DNA of 44,225 bases from a virus (Duplodnaviria; Heunggongvirae; Uroviricota; Caudoviricetes). Location: the IMG/VR virus record IMGVR_UViG_2744054854_000007; one strand, written 5' to 3'. The position numbers and the translations under genes are program-made. The first letter of the stretch is position 1. Each line of letters opens with the position of its first letter. Positions 2,324 to 26,984 of the stretch are shown here, piece by piece. The notes beneath the pieces were generated by a model. That model made no database searches and was not told the origin of the DNA. It worked only from the letters and a program-made list of their open reading frames with translations.

Positions 2324-3069
2324 GCGGCCCTCACAATATAATTAAAGGCGATGTTACGTGGACGGTTTTCATTAGCTGTTGGCACGACACGAGAGGCGTC
2401 GAATCCAAGGTCATCGGTTTTGTCTATAGTAGTTGTGTTATTCGGCATTCTCGCTGATCGTGTTCCTGCATCGTAAAAAGCCCCTCTGATTGCATCAAAA
2501 GACATACCGATCCCGCCATCTGCGAATCCCTCAATATTTCTTATTGCATCCCCCTGTGAAGATAATAATTGTCGCCCGGCATCCACTCTACGTCCGTCAT
2601 CCCAGCCACGAATAAATTCACCGCGTAAATCAGGCAATTTATTTGTCGGGTAAGCCTTTGCCAGTTCCGGGAATTCTTCAGCAGAAAAAGCCGCACCATT
2701 GCATTTCAGCCAGCCTGTTGGCGGAGTGGCTGAAGGCCACGGAACAGGCACACCAACGGGTAATGCAGAGCCTTCTCCCAAACCAAGGTTTGTGAGAGCC
2801 GTAGAAATCGCCGCTGCACCATCTGATTTGATATCGGCAAATGGGTTTGCACGGCTCAGTGTGAGTTTTTGAATGGCTTTTAAAACCTGAGTCATATCGT
2901 TAATGTCGAGCGCCAATCCTGCTGACTCTACGATATGCGCTAACTCTTCCTGCATGGCATTAAACGCTGCTGCCCGCAGCCTCGTTGCGGCAATACCACC
3001 AGCAACACTTCCATCAGTATATTTGCCATCCTGCGTTGCAGTGGCTTCGACTTGCCCGATTCGGAGCAT
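2320..3069 (-). CDS. Tail fibre protein (constant N-terminus + variable C-terminus in current orientation)
   Basis: 249 aa; GAGGA SD before ATG 3069; N-terminal ~95 aa lie outside the invertible segment, C-terminus inside; short fibre like the e14 stf genes (remembered). Confidence 0.85.
   Translation of the reverse strand: MLRIGQVEATATQDGKYTDGSVAGGIAATRLRAAAFNAMQEELAHIVESAGLALDINDMTQVLKAIQKLTLSRANPFADIKSDGAAAISTALTNLGLGEGSALPVGVPVPWPSATPPTGWLKCNGAAFSAEEFPELAKAYPTNKLPDLRGEFIRGWDDGRRVDAGRQLLSSQGDAIRNIEGFADGGIGMSFDAIRGAFYDAGTRSARMPNNTTTIDKTDDLGFDASRVVPTANENRPRNIAFNYIVRAA
2729..2784. repeat. Inverted repeat (right copy) flanking the invertible segment
   Basis: Reverse complement of 623-678 with one mismatch. 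Confidence 0.85.
2773..2798. other. hix/gix-like recombination (crossover) site, right; core AA at 2785-2786
   Basis: TTCTCCCAAACC-AA-GGTTTGTGAGAG; about 19 of 26 positions match remembered hixL TTCTTGAAAACCAAGGTTTTTGATAA. Confidence 0.7.
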
Positions 3070-3120
3070 AGTTAATCCTCACTTAGTGTTAAGCGATAAA
3101 ATCAGAGGGGGAAATATCAG

Positions 3121-3714
3121 TTATGAATAATTGAAAATGATGTTCAGATGGGATGGGGCAATTTTGTTGATTGAACACTCCAGTTGTTTATTGCCCCACG
3201 ATGCGAGCGGATCTCCGCAGTAGGACGCGCCAGCAAGCGAATACTTGATCGTTGTTTGTGGCGCATTTATCCGCCAGGTAAATGGCCACTCGTCACCGTT
3301 AAGCGCATCACCGCATACTGACATGCCACTCATAGCGGGCCGGAACTGTGTGATAGTGATGGTATAACCAAGAGCTGCAGCCACCCGGATGTAATAATCG
3401 CGGTTCAGGCCGCCGGTGCTGATTAACTTTGCCACCACGGCGCGCTGGCGATCGCTGACGCCACCGGATTCACCAATCGCACAATCATCTGGTAACCCCA
3501 GAGAGCTTTCCCATTCTGACAACATTACCGTCGCTGTAGGGGGAAAAGCACCAGTAATCAGGCTTTGCGCATCGTTGTCAGAACGCTGAAACGCGCTGCC
3601 CAGTGCCCGTAATACCGCAGCCTGTACCGTTCTTTGCGACCGGGGCCACGCCCTGCCCGTCGGTAGCAGCGCACCAAGCGCACCGGCATAATCATTTTTT
3701 GAAAAGAGGCTCAT
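3121..3714 (-). CDS. Baseplate/tail protein, Mu gp48 (YmfQ, DUF2313)-like
   Basis: 197 aa; position immediately upstream of the tail fibre; family assigned from memory. Confidence 0.7.
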   Translation of the reverse strand: MSLFSKNDYAGALGALLPTGRAWPRSQRTVQAAVLRALGSAFQRSDNDAQSLITGAFPPTATVMLSEWESSLGLPDDCAIGESGGVSDRQRAVVAKLISTGGLNRDYYIRVAAALGYTITITQFRPAMSGMSVCGDALNGDEWPFTWRINAPQTTIKYSLAGASYCGDPLASWGNKQLECSINKIAPSHLNIIFNYS

Positions 3715-22251: not shown

Positions 22252-22755
22252 ATGGGTAACAATATAATCAAAATAACTTTCGTAGCCGCAGTGCTGGCAT
22301 CACCAATTGCTCATGCCCAGTGGGTAACTAATACTGAAGATGACCTTTTCTCTGGTGGTAAGAAAGCAATGATGCTTGGCGAGGTTTCATCCGACAATGG
22401 CGCCATTGTGTTTGACTGCACTAAAGAAAAGCTATCGGCGGCATACGTTGAAATGGATAAAAGCACCGAATCACTATCAGAGGTACCAATGGACCTGATA
22501 ATGAAGGTCGACGGGAATACCGCAGTGAAGCTCGATGCTACCCTTTCAAGACGTAATGTTCAGAGCCTCCAGATTCAATCGGATGACGCGGACCAACTAA
22601 AAACAGTGCTTAAGCAGCTTCAGGGGGCGAAATCCAAAGTGTTAGTTGGTGTGCAAACAAAGGATGGCGGAAACCAGCATTCCATGTCAGCCAATGTTTC
22701 TGGATCGACAACTGCAGTAAACAGCTTCATAAAAGCTTGCGAAATTAACTTATAA
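22252..22755 (+). CDS. Secreted protein of unknown function (Sec signal peptide), candidate moron
   Basis: ATG 22252 with AAGGAG SD; MGNNIIKITFVAAVLASPIAHA/QW signal-like N-terminus; opposite strand to the flanking late genes. Confidence 0.6.
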   Translation: MGNNIIKITFVAAVLASPIAHAQWVTNTEDDLFSGGKKAMMLGEVSSDNGAIVFDCTKEKLSAAYVEMDKSTESLSEVPMDLIMKVDGNTAVKLDATLSRRNVQSLQIQSDDADQLKTVLKQLQGAKSKVLVGVQTKDGGNQHSMSANVSGSTTAVNSFIKACEINL

Positions 22756-22765
22756 GTTACTGCTT

Positions 22766-23404
22766 TTATTTTGCCGTCCTGATGGCTTCTGCTATCGCCT
22801 GATTTAAAGCAGACGGTAGCAGTGCGTTCGCCATGGTACGGGCCCTATCCATATACCCCAGCACTGGAGTCACAGGTAGCGCATCACCAAACCGGATCAA
22901 AAGCTTTGGAGAACGCTGTTTGCGTTTCGGTCTTCGCGTCCCGTTAGCGGAACGTTTGGCCCGTCGCTTCTTAGCTTTCATCGGCTTCTTACGCTGCCAG
23001 ACAGCGTTAACGCCATCAACCTCACCTACGAATACATTTTCCTTTGCTTTAAGCTGTGAGAGCTTATTACGCGGCATGTTGCCGTATTTGTTTAGCTTGA
23101 CGTTCTTGGGGTTCAATAGCGCTTGGCTATTGAGCTTATGCTCTCCACCTAACTCGAATGGTTCCAGATAACCAGCCGCGGTATCGCGGACAAAAACCTT
23201 TGCAGTCAGGTTGTTCTTCCTTGCCGCCACCGAACCAACTGATTTAACGGTAAACGGTGTCGGGCTCTCCAGATGTCGTTCGAACGCTGTTTTCTGTGCC
23301 GTTTCTATTTGACGAACAACTTTTGTCATAGCTAGTGCTGTAGCATATGGCACCTGCTTTTGTACCTTCTTTAATTGCTGAGAAAGGTCTTTGAGTGTTG
23401 CCAT
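22766..23404 (-). CDS. Hypothetical protein with highly basic Lys/Arg-rich segment
   Basis: Internal ATG 23404 (MATLKDLSQQLKK); 212 aa; ...KKPMKAKKRRAKRSANGTRRPKRKQRSPK... tract. Confidence 0.5.
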   Translation of the reverse strand: MATLKDLSQQLKKVQKQVPYATALAMTKVVRQIETAQKTAFERHLESPTPFTVKSVGSVAARKNNLTAKVFVRDTAAGYLEPFELGGEHKLNSQALLNPKNVKLNKYGNMPRNKLSQLKAKENVFVGEVDGVNAVWQRKKPMKAKKRRAKRSANGTRRPKRKQRSPKLLIRFGDALPVTPVLGYMDRARTMANALLPSALNQAIAEAIRTAK

Positions 23405-23425: not shown

Positions 23426-23449
23426 TAAAAAAACCGCCCGGAGGCGGTG
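23426..23449 (-). terminator. Rho-independent terminator (minus strand)
   Basis: CCGCC-cgga-GGCGG hairpin followed on the minus strand by a T7 run; 3' of acidic-protein gene. Confidence 0.6.
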
Positions 23450-23465
23450 CATTATGCTTATCGTT

Positions 23466-23708
23466 CTATTCTTGCTCCGAATCCGGGTCATCAAAAACAT
23501 TAATAGATAAGTAAACACACTCACCTATTTCCCATCCTTTCTTGCTAAGAATATCTTCAGGGGTAGTATCGGGAACATAGAAATAGTACTCATATACCAT
23601 ATCGCCTGAATGCCCTGTATTCTCCTCAAGGTCTTCAGGTGATAGAGGTATGGAATCCAACTCATCGTCAGTGAGTTCTAATTCAGTAGCAAGCGCTGAT
23701 TGTGACAT
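23466..23708 (-). CDS. Very acidic small protein (80 aa), unknown function
   Basis: ATG 23708 with AGGAGG SD; about 22 Asp/Glu vs 2 Lys; flanked by terminator-like hairpins on both sides and a ~230-bp non-coding leader. Confidence 0.55.
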   Translation of the reverse strand: MSQSALATELELTDDELDSIPLSPEDLEENTGHSGDMVYEYYFYVPDTTPEDILSKKGWEIGECVYLSINVFDDPDSEQE

Positions 23709-23913
23709 ATGACCTCCTGTGTGAACTAACCTCAAGCTAACCCACGCAACAATTTAATTCAACATCATGTTTTGTAAAGGATTTCTGACGAGTCCGTCAA
23801 TTTGCATTATCGCAGGCACTCAGTGAATGCTTTCTGTAATGCAGTTAGTCGAGTAGCAATACAGCATGCCTCTCAACCACGGGATTGGATATAACCCAGT
23901 GAATGTATTATCG

Positions 23914-23940
23914 ATGAAAAAAGGCCGCCTAAGCGACCTT
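23914..23940 (-). terminator. Rho-independent terminator (minus strand)
   Basis: 8-bp stem (one G-U) with 4-nt loop then T6 on the minus strand, directly after the stop of 23947-24198. Confidence 0.55.
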
Positions 23941-23946
23941 TTGCTT

Positions 23947-24198
23947 TTATCTTGACCTGATGATTTTTTCTATAGCTAAATGGACACGTTGATAATCATC
24001 AGTCCCAACGGGATATGAAGGGCTTCTTCTTCCGGCCACTTCGCCGTTGTAAACCATCTGAACTTTGATTACCTCAACATTTTCACCATCCCAGATTTCA
24101 GTTCCACGAGAAACTTTGTAATGCGTGTTACTTGGGTGTGGTTTAGATGCTGTCACTAACTCTACAGAGTCTTCGATGGGGAAATATGTTTTTGCCAT
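23947..24198 (-). CDS. Hypothetical protein (83 aa)
   Basis: ATG 24198 with AAGGT SD; follows spanin genes. Confidence 0.45.
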   Translation of the reverse strand: MAKTYFPIEDSVELVTASKPHPSNTHYKVSRGTEIWDGENVEVIKVQMVYNGEVAGRRSPSYPVGTDDYQRVHLAIEKIIRSR

Positions 24199-26084: not shown

Positions 26085-26984
26085 TTAGCGAATATTCCAC
26101 ATCATCGTGCTGCCATTATGATTTTCAATAATTTTCGCAGCAGGACTCGTACCAAATGAATGCATGTAGCAATGATGTATAGTCAGCACAAGATCCTGCA
26201 GAGTTTGGTCGCTCTCCAGCTCCATAATGTTCAAACCAATGCTTTGCGCTTTATCCAGATGAATATGTCTAGCATGCGCATAGGTTGTATGATGATTGTT
26301 TAGCTCATCACAAATTCGCTTAGCCTTATCTTGAGCGTTAGCATGACCTGCAAACATACCAGTACACAGCCATTTTTGTACTATTTCATTAGCCCAAACA
26401 ATAGCCTTTTCACATTCACCAATGAGAGTCGGGTTTAGCTTTTGAAGAGTAAATTGCCACCATTGGATCGCTGCAGCATTTTCAGAAATCTCTTTCTTAG
26501 CTCGCTCATACTCTTCTATGATCGCATGAGATGATAAACCACCAAGCTGCGGATCAATTGGCCCCAAATTTGACTGTTTGCCCAATACAATCTGTTCGGC
26601 ACAGCAAGCCAACATGGTCCCACAACTCATTGAGATCATAGGAACAATTGCCCGGATATTGGTCCCAAATTTTGAACGAAGATAATGACCAATAGATTCC
26701 AATGCTGCAATATCTCCCCCTGGGGTATGAAGCAAGATATCCAGCCCTAATGACGTGTCTAAGCCGTTAATGGCTGACATAAGACCATTTTTATCGTCAT
26801 CTGACATTTGTATTAAATGCTGCAACCCAGGCCCCCCCTTCTGGAGGAAGCCTGAGTAATATGAAATTACGTTTCGGCCTGTATGCTTCGACAACTCTCG
26901 TAAGTACTTGTGGCGAACCTCATCCGCTGGTGTACGTTGAGCAATAGTACCCATCTCGCCCAACACGTCTATCCAATTTGGCAT
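26085..26984 (-). CDS. ClpP/S49-fold serine peptidase-like cargo protein (second, non-morphogenetic)
   Basis: 299 aa; ...LDILLHTPGGDIAA... motif of S49/SDH-type peptidases (memory); visibly AT-richer than backbone; 12 nt downstream of a co-directional small ORF. Confidence 0.55.
   Translation of the reverse strand: MPNWIDVLGEMGTIAQRTPADEVRHKYLRELSKHTGRNVISYYSGFLQKGGPGLQHLIQMSDDDKNGLMSAINGLDTSLGLDILLHTPGGDIAALESIGHYLRSKFGTNIRAIVPMISMSCGTMLACCAEQIVLGKQSNLGPIDPQLGGLSSHAIIEEYERAKKEISENAAAIQWWQFTLQKLNPTLIGECEKAIVWANEIVQKWLCTGMFAGHANAQDKAKRICDELNNHHTTYAHARHIHLDKAQSIGLNIMELESDQTLQDLVLTIHHCYMHSFGTSPAAKIIENHNGSTMMWNIR

What the first reader, a model, noticed from the sequence alone, without database searches (positions are those of the whole stretch)
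23426..23946. Stand-alone transcription unit encoding a very acidic 80-aa protein: candidate DNA-mimic anti-defence factor
Seen in sequence: ORF 23466-23708 with a strong AGGAGG SD, about 22 acidic vs 2 basic residues, Tyr-rich core (VYEYYFYVP), a ~230-bp non-coding leader, and terminator hairpins on both sides (23914-23940 upstream, 23426-23449 downstream). Established: small, highly acidic phage proteins such as Ocr and ArdA-type proteins often act as DNA mimics against restriction or other nucleic-acid-sensing defences. Inference only: this may be an anti-restriction or anti-defence moron; the neighbouring unknown genes (22766-23404 basic protein; 23947-24198) may be related accessory genes.
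Basis: inference. Interest (0 to 1): 0.5.

Follow-up and report, generated by a model that had tools for sequence, protein, structure and literature searches.

The report
Mobile acidic-protein moron in prophage
A self-contained mini-gene (own control site, promoter and terminator) in an E. coli lambda-like prophage encodes an extremely acidic 80-residue protein from an unnamed family carried by phages and plasmids; it is a reasonable but untested candidate for a protein that blocks bacterial immunity.

Summary
ORF 23466-23708 (- strand) has an AGGAGG ribosome-binding site, 22 acidic against 2 basic residues, and stable terminator hairpins on both sides. It is a constrained gene (dN/dS 0.06-0.24).

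The "230-bp leader" is mostly not a leader. It holds the upstream gene's terminator, then a conserved 16-bp palindrome (TTGAC-N6-GTCA) and a sigma-70-like promoter. The predicted 5' UTR is about 20-45 nt.

The roughly 370-420 bp cassette recurs in otherwise different temperate phages, nearly always between the lysis genes and terminase. Related genes follow zot in a filamentous prophage and occur on Vibrio, Photobacterium and Enterobacter plasmids.

The family has about 60 clusters at 50% identity (phrog_31861; no Pfam, NCBIfam or PADLOC match). It has a confident compact alpha/beta model with no structural relative, so nothing links it to Ocr or ArdA.

The same domain is the N-terminal module of some RiboL-PSP-type HEPN proteins, which ties it to conflict systems.

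An anti-defence role, as a protein or nucleic-acid decoy, is the best guess (about 0.4). DNA mimicry specifically is untested.

The palindrome matches the RutR box (14/14 in Yersinia copies, 10/14 here). That is a lead only.

The parts
23466..23708 (-). Coding sequence of the 80-aa, very acidic protein (WP_016245909.1; member of phrog_31861)
   Evidence: ORF listed. Composition. PHROG match E = 1.2e-25. Annotated as a hypothetical protein in E. coli RefSeq records. dN/dS 0.06-0.24. AF2 model with pLDDT 81.
23713..23718 (-). Shine-Dalgarno AGGAGG, 4 nt upstream of the ATG
   Evidence: Read directly from the sequence. Invariant in all four aligned cassettes.
23734..23762 (-). Predicted sigma-70 promoter: -35 TTGAAT (23762-23757), 17-nt spacer, -10 TAGCTT (23739-23734). 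It reads TTGACT-17-TATCTT in L009 and L010, and TTGACT-17-TAGCTT in E. coli KFu022.
   Evidence: Alignment and scan. Conserved position and spacing while synonymous sites of the ORF are near saturation. Consensus prediction only; the start site is not mapped.
23751..23778 (-). Alternative or overlapping promoter-like site: TTTACA, 16 nt, TAAATT
   Evidence: Scanner hit, 9 of 12. TTTACA also occurs downstream of the palindrome in the Yersinia and L031 cassettes. Which of the two sites is used is not known.
23785..23800 (-). 16-bp palindromic candidate operator, TTGACGGACTCGTCAG (TTGAC-N6-GTCA core)
   Evidence: It is the only match in the 44-kb window. The motif lies 83-94 nt upstream of the ATG in 5-6 sequence-distinct cassettes and nowhere else in 352 kb of fetched loci. 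It matches the RutR consensus TTGACCAnnTGGTCAA at 10 of 14 positions (PMC2475637).
23803..23842 (-). 5' end of the mobile cassette: segment with nested inverted repeats (TGCATTA...GCATTC-ACT-GAGTGC...TAATGCA)
   Evidence: Shared with the Ewingella prophage L004 and E. coli KFu022 L022, whose upstream genes differ. Absent from L009 and L010. Hairpins predicted. Function unknown.
23426..23448 (-). Intrinsic terminator of the cassette (ACCGCC-TCCG-GGCGGT plus T7); also the 3' mosaic boundary
   Evidence: Scanner hit. Fold -16.5 kcal/mol, z = -4.4. Conserved in L009 and L010. Similarity of E. coli prophages H9-H20 begins at window 23447 or 23404 (query position 853 or 896).
23915..23942 (-). Intrinsic terminator of the upstream 83-aa gene. 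It insulates the cassette from upstream transcription that is not antiterminated. It is context, not part of the mobile cassette.
   Evidence: Fold -14.5 kcal/mol, z = -4.2. Not shared with KFu022, where a different gene precedes the cassette.

Best explanation
The locus is a horizontally mobile moron cassette of about 370-420 bp. It consists of a palindromic operator, a sigma-70-type promoter, a strong ribosome-binding site, an 80-codon ORF and an intrinsic terminator. It sits in the accessory slot between the Rz/Rz1 lysis genes and the small terminase of a lambda/Rac-like E. coli prophage.

Expression. Host RNA polymerase can transcribe it on its own, both in the lysogen and immediately after DNA entry. 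Q-antiterminated late transcription should also read through it. Expression is probably modulated by a dimeric host regulator bound to the TTGAC-N6-GTCAA site; RutR, a TetR-family regulator, is the best lead.

Product. The protein is a compact, cytoplasmic, extremely acidic alpha/beta protein. It belongs to an uncharacterised family found on temperate phages, filamentous prophages and plasmids.

Most likely mechanism (inferred, not shown). The protein acts stoichiometrically as a binding decoy or inhibitor. It would offer a conserved aromatic/GxSGEM hairpin and a polyanionic surface to a host or rival nucleic-acid-targeting immunity protein, and so protect the mobile element (anti-defence). 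The same domain serves as the N-terminal regulatory or sensor module of RiboL-PSP-type HEPN RNase-like effectors. A concrete version is therefore that the free domain mimics or competes with that module, or occupies a nucleic-acid-binding cleft.

What is shown: the gene, its constraint, the cassette anatomy, its mobility, its restriction to mobile elements, and the domain fusions.

What is inferred: promoter use, the identity of the regulator, and the whole biochemical function.
For: Anatomy and mobility.
- Terminators.
- The promoter and palindrome are conserved with the gene in four different phage backgrounds, while flanking genes differ.
- Breakpoints in related E. coli prophages coincide with the cassette edges.
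- GC is 0.41 against 0.51 for the window.

A real, selected gene.
- dN/dS is 0.06-0.24.
- The family profile finds 60 clusters at 50% identity.
- The exact protein occurs on 751 contigs.

Restricted to mobile elements.
- It lies at the lysis-terminase junction in at least 10 backgrounds, twice on the opposite strand.
- It follows zot in a CTX-like filamentous prophage.
- It is found on 12 plasmids, 9 conjugative and 3 mobilizable. In one it is the only accessory gene of a 5-kb mobilizable plasmid. In another it sits in a co-directional array of small ORFs about 4 kb from mobH.

Link to conflict systems.
- The domain is fused N-terminally to a PF18735 RiboL-PSP HEPN domain in P0020, P0028, P0040, P0057 and P0084-P0090.
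- Relatives of that HEPN domain carry other N-terminal modules instead: PF18870, PF18871 or HNH.

Acidity belongs to the family (pI about 4 in nearly all members) and is concentrated at residues 14-30 and 73-80.

No conserved neighbouring partner gene was found. This fits a factor that acts in trans.
Against: - There is no functional evidence of any kind. No family member has a name or a publication.
- There is no sequence or fold similarity to any known anti-defence protein or DNA mimic.
- A constitutive moron promoter with flanking terminators is the classic signature of lysogen-expressed host-benefit or exclusion genes, which favours the defence rival.
- The HEPN fusions seem to come mostly from other, AT-rich (probably marine) bacteria. 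No such fusion was shown in E. coli, so the proposed target may be absent from this host.
- The predicted promoter is only a consensus match. The window's -35 (TTGAAT) and -10 (TAGCTT) are both imperfect, and the scanner does not find more promoter-like sites in the region than in shuffles (5 found against 6.0 expected).
- The shape and surface of the model could not be examined.
Confidence: 0.4

Rival explanations
1. It is a lysogenic-conversion or superinfection-exclusion factor. The prophage expresses the acidic protein from its own promoter, and the protein protects the lysogen. It would sequester or mis-target a DNA- or RNA-binding protein of incoming phages or plasmids, or sense them, as the same domain may do in the HEPN fusions.
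For: - The moron architecture, an own promoter between two terminators inside the otherwise silent late region, is what lysogen-expressed genes such as lambda bor or HK97 gp15 show (own knowledge).
- It has the opposite orientation to the late operon in L016 and L030.
- It occupies the cargo position after zot in a filamentous prophage, where ctxAB-type conversion genes sit.
- The domain is used by HEPN effectors that look like single-gene abortive-infection proteins.
Against: - The protein has no enzymatic or membrane domain that could itself exclude a phage.
- It is also the only accessory gene on a 5-kb mobilizable plasmid and occurs on conjugative plasmids. There, a benefit to the element during entry is easier to explain than protection of the host.
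- There is no PADLOC match.
Confidence: 0.22
2. It is a regulatory decoy. The protein binds a transcription factor, a nucleoid protein (H-NS-like) or RNA polymerase and so adjusts phage or host gene expression, in the manner of an anti-repressor or anti-silencer. It would not be involved in immunity.
For: - The N-terminal two helices carry an HTH-like "LAxxLGLTxEEL" pattern with acidic residues in place of basic ones (the resemblance is by eye only).
- Some members are fused behind HTH, ribbon-helix-helix-like or zinc-ribbon modules.
- Family genes often sit next to Rha/Ant-type regulatory genes.
- One member lies divergent from a CI-like HTH gene.
- The cassette has a conserved operator.
Against: - There is no significant HTH or regulator family hit for the window protein.
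- The window cassette has no Rha/Ant neighbour.
- The HEPN fusions are hard to explain by a purely regulatory role.
Confidence: 0.15
3. It is a partner of the adjacent, very basic 212-aa protein (22766-23404), acting as its chaperone, inhibitor or charge-neutralising escort.
For: - The most acidic and the most basic ORFs of the window are neighbours.
- The same pair, acidic gene then phrog_1924 homologue, is seen in a Yersinia prophage whose acidic protein is only 51% identical (L028).
Against: - A strong terminator separates the two genes.
- Of 29 matching E. coli prophages, 22 keep the basic gene without the acidic gene.
- Most family members (L004, L009, L010, L015, L024, L031, L016, L017 and the plasmids) have no such neighbour.
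- The basic gene tracks the terminase module, not the cassette.
Confidence: 0.05
4. It is a virion or morphogenesis protein of the late operon, for example a scaffold-like or decoration protein.
For: It lies within the late transcription unit, downstream of Q and the lysis genes.
Against: - It is absent from closely related prophages that have the same head and terminase genes.
- It is present in filamentous prophages and plasmids.
- It is sometimes on the opposite strand.
- The PHROG family has no structural annotation.
Confidence: 0.02

Closest known systems
Phage morons (lambda bor, HK97 gp15; concept of Juhala/Hendrix; own knowledge)
   Same: A single extra gene with its own promoter and terminator. 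Its base composition is atypical. It is present or absent among otherwise similar phages. It is inserted between two late-gene blocks.
   Different: The product is a cytoplasmic polyanionic protein, not a membrane or lipoprotein exclusion factor. The cassette also carries a conserved palindromic operator, and the family extends to plasmids and filamentous phages.
Ocr (T7 gp0.3) and ArdA DNA-mimic anti-restriction proteins
   Same: Small size, very low pI, carriage on mobile elements, and expression by host RNA polymerase independently of phage regulators.
   Different: There is no sequence match (Pfam) and no fold match. The predicted fold is a compact 3-helix, 3-strand alpha/beta domain with a conserved aromatic hairpin, not an elongated helical dimer. 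DNA mimicry was not tested.
T4 Dmd, a phage antitoxin-like inhibitor of the HEPN toxins RnlA and LsoA (own knowledge)
   Same: A small phage protein with no cognate neighbour that could act in trans on a HEPN RNase. It serves here as the model for how a free acidic domain could neutralise RiboL-PSP HEPN effectors.
   Different: There is no homology. Dmd is an early gene of a lytic phage. No interaction with any HEPN protein has been shown for this family.
N-terminal modules of RiboL-PSP HEPN proteins (PF18870 HEPN_RES_NTD1, PF18871 HEPN_Toprim_N)
   Same: They occupy the same position, about 80-100 aa N-terminal to a PF18735 HEPN domain, in proteins of the same size class.
   Different: They are different, unrelated sequence families. 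Only the acidic domain is also widespread as a free-standing gene on phages and plasmids.
RutR box of E. coli (TTGACCAnnTGGTCAA; PMC2475637, PMC2952853)
   Same: A 16-bp palindrome with the same outer arms. The key positions 4 and 13 are conserved in every cassette. The match is 14/14 in the Yersinia cassettes, 13/14 in L029 and 12/14 in L010.
   Different: The window's site matches only 10/14. It carries the symmetric +-3 C.G to G.C change that lowered RutR affinity 12.7-fold in vitro. Binding has not been tested, and another TetR-type regulator is equally possible.

Membership tests
phrog_31861 (PHROGs v4, function unknown) | Significant full-length match to the family HMM | tested here: met
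   E = 1.2e-25, 90.4 bits, residues 4-79 on profile positions 5-80 of 83.
Phage moron | Intrinsic terminator directly downstream of the gene | tested here: met
   23448-23426: scanner hit and fold at -16.5 kcal/mol, z = -4.4. Conserved in L009 and L010.
Phage moron | Own promoter directly upstream | tested here: inconclusive
   A -35/-10 pair with 17-nt spacing is conserved in four backgrounds. It is only a consensus match. Promoter-like sites are no more frequent in the region than in shuffles. No transcript data are available.
Phage moron | Present or absent among otherwise related phages, with atypical base composition | tested here: met
   Only 8 of 29 matching E. coli prophages carry the gene, and the breakpoints lie at the cassette edges. 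GC is 0.41 against 0.51.
Ocr (Pfam Ocr family) / ArdA DNA mimics | Sequence match to the family profile | tested here: not met
   No Pfam family at E <= 0.1 for the window protein. None of 46 family members hits Ocr or ArdA at E <= 5.
Ocr / ArdA DNA mimics | Fold similarity to solved DNA-mimic structures | tested here: not met
Ocr / ArdA DNA mimics | Elongated surface with carboxylates arrayed like DNA phosphates; binding to R-M enzymes | not testable with these tools
Only the secondary structure (H-H-E-E-H-E) and the acidity profile are known.
RiboL-PSP HEPN effector (PF18735) | Presence of the HEPN domain with the Rx4H motif | tested here: not met
   The window protein is 80 aa and consists of the N-terminal module only. 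The HEPN domain is present only in the fusion relatives P0020, P0028, P0040 and P0057.
N-terminal module of the acidic-domain-HEPN fusions | Significant profile match between the free protein family and the N-terminus of the fusions | tested here: met
   P0020 1.9e-13, P0028 3.8e-11, P0040 1.6e-8, P0057 4.9e-5, over profile positions 4-76. The motif is shared in the alignment.
MazE/AbrB-type antitoxin (PF04014) | Profile match or swapped-hairpin fold | tested here: not met
Known anti-phage defence proteins (PADLOC-DB v2) | Match to any defence-system model | tested here: not met
   0 families for the window protein, and nothing significant for the fusions.
RutR regulon | RutR box TTGACCAnnTGGTCAA with consensus at positions 4 and 13 | tested here: inconclusive
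   The window site matches 10/14 with positions 4 and 13 kept. It also has the +-3 G.C/C.G change that weakens binding 12.7-fold. Related cassettes match 11-14/14. Binding has not been measured.
Curated anti-defence collections (dbAPIS, AntiDefenseFinder) | Match to a curated anti-defence HMM | not tested
   These libraries are not among the tools.

The most novel reading that the evidence does not exclude
The family is a new class of inhibitor carried by mobile elements. It would disarm RiboL-PSP-type HEPN abortive-infection RNases, and perhaps other nucleic-acid-targeting defences, by mimicking their own acidic N-terminal regulatory domain. It would spread as a plug-in cassette whose expression is wired to a host metabolite-sensing TetR regulator, the uracil sensor RutR.
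Probability: 0.12. Interest if true: 0.8.

Novelty: new member of a known kind. Interest (0 to 1): 0.45.

Why it matters
If the protein is an anti-defence factor, it would add a family with a new fold that is shared by lambdoid phages, filamentous phages and plasmids of Enterobacterales and Vibrionaceae. Its link to HEPN effectors would point directly to a testable target.

The cassette is also a clean example of a minimal mobile transcription unit that carries its own operator. If RutR or a similar host regulator binds there, a phage accessory gene would be tied to host pyrimidine status.

Even if the function turns out otherwise, the work defines an unannotated protein family. It has about 60 clusters at 50% identity, and the exact protein occurs on 751 contigs. 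It merits a Pfam-type entry.

Tried and rejected
- Megablast of the locus and tblastn of the protein against 50,697 phage genomes gave no match.
- Pfam, NCBIfam and PADLOC gave nothing for the protein. A Pfam scan of all 46 family members gave only scattered single hits. KTSC at E = 0.031 and MazE at E = 0.24, each in 1 of 46 members, were rejected as chance.
- Riboswitch or structured-leader idea: no Rfam hit at E <= 1, and the 247-nt region folds only marginally better than shuffles (z = -1.85). Rejected.
- PDB sequence profiles for the family and for the fusions gave nothing significant.
- The palindrome as a terminator: rejected, because no T-run follows it on the coding strand.
- The palindrome as merely a second -35 hexamer: a matching -10 is not conserved in the Yersinia cassettes, so an operator is preferred.
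- Partnership with the basic neighbour: rejected on co-occurrence.
- A conserved toxin partner next to the HTH, RHH or Zn-ribbon fusions, or next to the HEPN fusions: none found.
- Big_2-repeat surface proteins that hit the profile (P0048, P0054, P0055, P0064, P0065) look like summed weak repeat matches and were set aside.
- The search for related loci with the broad alignment failed because it lacked a conserved stretch.
- Literature searches by accession and by theme found nothing on this family.
Full report
**Observation.**
- The - strand ORF 23466-23708 encodes 80 residues, MSQSALATELELTDDELDSIPLSPEDLEENTGHSGDMVYEYYFYVPDTTPEDILSKKGWEIGECVYLSINVFDDPDSEQE.
- It has 22 Asp+Glu, 2 Lys, no Arg and a pI of about 4.
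- It is the most acidic of 62 non-overlapping ORFs in the window by a wide margin.
- AGGAGG lies 4 nt before the ATG.
The downstream one (23448-23433 plus T7) was picked up by the terminator scan. The two fold at -16.5 and -14.5 kcal/mol, with z-scores of -4.4 and -4.2 against shuffles.

**Genomic setting.**
- The window is 100% identical over this locus to a chromosomal prophage of E. coli 2018-10-1CC and five other complete genomes.
- The RefSeq annotation and my scans give this order on the - strand: Q antiterminator, SDH-type protease, two holins, GH19 endolysin, Rz/Rz1, an 83-aa ORF, the acidic ORF, a 212-aa basic ORF, a 167-aa secreted-type ORF on the + strand, TerS, TerL, gpW, portal.
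- Elsewhere the window has a CI-type repressor, YdaT, RecE/RecT and an integrase.
- It is therefore a lambda/Rac-like temperate phage. The gene sits in the accessory slot between the lysis and packaging genes.

**The "leader" is a promoter region and the unit is a mobile cassette.**
- I aligned the locus with three homologous loci whose flanking genes differ: an Ewingella prophage (L004) and two IMG/VR contigs (L009, L010).
- All four conserve about 110 nt upstream of the ATG. The elements are a palindrome TTGACG-N4-CGTCA(A), an invariant AAAACA, a -35 (TTGAAT here, TTGACT elsewhere), a 17-nt spacer (19 in L004), a -10 (TAGCTT/TATCTT) and the AGGAGG.
- Over the same comparisons the ORF's synonymous sites are nearly saturated (pS 0.67-0.86), while dN/dS is 0.06-0.24. 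Both the protein and the upstream elements are therefore under selection.
- In related E. coli prophages, similarity to the window starts at 23447 (three genomes) or at 23404, the start of the basic gene. The first point is the cassette terminator. There the 83-aa gene and the acidic gene are replaced by an unrelated 99-aa gene.
- In strain KFu022 an identical acidic gene follows a different lysis cassette and a different upstream gene, with similarity starting at 23842.
- GC is 0.41 against 0.51 for the window.
- The 238-nt gap is thus the upstream gene's terminator, about 70 nt of spacer, and then the cassette's own control region. The predicted 5' UTR is only about 20-45 nt.
- No Rfam family matches. 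The region is not unusually structured.
- "Stand-alone transcription unit" and "moron" are well supported. The promoter itself remains a consensus prediction.

**A conserved operator.**
- TTGAC-N6-GTCA occurs once in the 44-kb window.
- In 352 kb of fetched loci it occurs only 83-94 nt upstream of family genes. There are 5-6 distinct sequence variants, and they include cassettes whose proteins are only 33-51% identical to this one: Yersinia TTGACCAATTGGTCAA, L029 TTGACTAATTGGTCAA and L031 TTGACTCATGAGTCAA.
- The cassette encodes nothing else, and the protein is far too acidic to bind DNA. The binding factor should therefore be a host protein (inference).
- The motif matches the published RutR box TTGACCAnnTGGTCAA (PMC2475637): 14/14 in Yersinia, 13/14 in L029, 12/14 in L010, 11/14 in L004 and L009, and 10/14 in the window and L031. 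The critical positions 4 and 13 are always kept. Genuine in vivo RutR sites match 9-13/14.
- The window-type sites carry the symmetric +-3 G.C change, which lowered RutR affinity 12.7-fold in vitro (PMC2952853). I treat RutR as a lead, not a finding.

**The protein family.**
- Close homologues are few: 8 clusters, in E. coli, Kluyvera and Ewingella.
- A profile search of 1.8 billion representatives finds 60 clusters at E <= 1e-3, 22 of them at E <= 1e-10.
- The family consensus is LAxxLxLTxEELxxxxL...GSSGEMxYxYYFxVPxxTPxxILxKKGWxVG...FD.
- Acidity is a family trait. It is concentrated at residues 14-30 and in the C-terminal tail. The GxSGEM loop, the YxYYF strand, VP, W59 and G62 are the conserved core.
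- AlphaFold2 with a 46-sequence alignment gives pLDDT 81, with the order H3-9, H14-19, E28-31, E38-44, H51-57, E64-68.
- No source gives any member a name. I found no paper on it.

**Where the family lives.**
- Lysis-terminase junction of otherwise different temperate phages: the window, L004, L009/L010, Yersinia L015 and L028, L024, L025 and L031. In Salinicola L016 and in L030 it sits at the same junction on the opposite strand.
- One member directly follows zot at the cargo end of a CTX-like filamentous prophage. A second paralogue lies 3 kb away, near an integrase.
- A Zn-ribbon-plus-acidic-domain form of about 128 aa is found on 12 plasmids of Vibrio, Photobacterium and Enterobacter.
  - Nine are conjugative and three mobilizable.
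  - In a 5-kb ColKP3-type mobilizable plasmid it is the only accessory gene.
  - In pVPS91 it lies in a long co-directional array of small ORFs about 4 kb from mobH.
- No conserved neighbour accompanies it anywhere.

**Domain fusions.**
- In P0020, P0028, P0040, P0057 and P0084-P0090 the acidic domain is the N-terminus of 260-277-aa proteins.
- Their C-terminal domain carries RHDIVHRNG (an Rx4H motif) and belongs to PF18735, HEPN_RiboL-PSP. That assignment is sub-threshold for single sequences but is precomputed as a Pfam hit for several relatives.
- Relatives of this HEPN domain carry other N-terminal modules in the same place: PF18870, PF18871 or HNH.
- The fusions look like single-gene units without a conserved partner.
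- Other members are preceded by an HTH (P0038), by an RHH-like segment with an Mrr-type nuclease gene downstream (P0021), or by a zinc ribbon.
- These fusions are the only functional handle. They place the domain in conflict-system proteins, as a regulatory, sensor or binding module.

**Interpretation.**
- Shown: a constrained gene for a compact polyanionic protein. It is packaged as a self-sufficient, horizontally mobile cassette with a conserved operator. It is carried only by mobile elements of several kinds, and it is homologous to a swappable N-terminal module of HEPN effectors.
- Inferred, best guess (about 0.4): a stoichiometric decoy or inhibitor that benefits the element by blocking a nucleic-acid-targeting immunity protein. 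One concrete version is trans-mimicry of the HEPN effectors' own N-terminal module, analogous in logic to T4 Dmd acting on RnlA/LsoA (own knowledge). Sharing of the family between phages, filamentous phages and small mobilizable plasmids favours a benefit to the element itself.
- Further inference from lambda biology: in lambda-like cos phages the end next to the lysis genes enters the cell first. A host-RNAP promoter there would then give very early expression.
- Main rival (about 0.22): a lysogen-expressed exclusion or conversion factor, which is what moron architecture classically signals.
- Other rivals: a regulatory decoy (about 0.15), a partner of the basic neighbour (about 0.05, contradicted by co-occurrence) and a structural role (about 0.02).
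- The specific "DNA mimic like Ocr or ArdA" claim is neither supported nor excluded. There is no homology or fold similarity, and I could not inspect the model's surface.

**Novelty and score.**
- As a kind of thing, a phage moron encoding a small acidic accessory protein, it is familiar.
- The protein family itself is unannotated and has no detectable structural relative.
- The operator-bearing cassette and the HEPN fusion link are new details.
- I rate it a new member of a known kind, with interest 0.45. It is a solid, testable lead rather than a surprise.

Noticed in passing
window 22766-23404 (-): The 212-aa ORF is the most basic in the window (43 K+R, pI 10.9). It matches phrog_1924, "minor tail protein", at E = 2.6e-60 but has no Pfam hit. 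Its homologues sit just upstream of TerS, or as the last gene at the genome end of Rhodobacter and Dinoroseobacter phages. It is conserved in E. coli prophages that lack the acidic gene. Its position next to the packaging genes makes the "tail" label doubtful.
   Followed up: partly
window 23947-24198 (-): This 83-aa ORF has its own strong terminator, GC 0.41, and no Pfam or PHROG match. In other E. coli prophages it is replaced by unrelated genes of 99 aa or 114 aa. It is probably a second, independent moron in the same slot.
   Followed up: partly
window 22252-22755 (+): This 167-aa ORF has a signal-peptide-like N-terminus and lies opposite to the late operon. It matches phrog_19473 (unknown function, E = 4.6e-99). 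It is probably another lysogen-expressed cargo gene.
   Followed up: no
window 26085-26984 (-), terminator-like site 26062-26041: A ClpP-like SDH-type serine protease gene (PF01972, E = 2e-21) lies between the Q antiterminator and the holins, in a low-GC stretch, and a strong terminator-like hairpin follows it. This is an unusual occupant of that position.
   Followed up: no
window 23803-23842 (-): A nested inverted repeat (TGCATTA...GCATTC-ACT-GAGTGC...TAATGCA) lies at the 5' edge of the cassette. It is shared with the Ewingella and KFu022 copies but not with L009 or L010. Its function is unknown.
   Followed up: partly
L017:5001-5261 and L017:8255-8509: A gammaproteobacterial genome carries two paralogues of the family within 3.3 kb. 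One directly follows zot of a CTX-like filamentous prophage. The other lies next to an integrase gene.
   Followed up: partly
L037:2773-3156; L038:7773-8162: The plasmid form of the family is a six-cysteine zinc ribbon fused to the acidic domain. It is the only accessory gene of a 5-kb ColKP3-type mobilizable Enterobacter plasmid. It also lies in a long array of small ORFs near mobH on Vibrio MOBH conjugative plasmids, which is possibly a leading region.
   Followed up: partly
L035:2021-2659 and 2795-3679: One family member carries an N-terminal ribbon-helix-helix-like segment. It sits immediately upstream of an Mrr_cat restriction-type nuclease gene and next to a resolvase gene.
   Followed up: no
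proteins P0048, P0054, P0055, P0064, P0065: Large Big_2-type repeat surface proteins reach E = 1e-7 to 6e-4 against the family profile through many weak repeats. This is probably spurious, but the resemblance of "GTTGxYTAxAxYSDG" to the GSSGEMxYxYYF hairpin was not examined.
   Followed up: no
L031:5801-5835 against window 23426-23448: Nearly the same terminator sequence (GCCGCCTCCGGGCGGTTTTTTTATGTC) that ends the window cassette lies upstream of the family gene in L031. Such terminators may mark recombination joints in this accessory slot.
   Followed up: no
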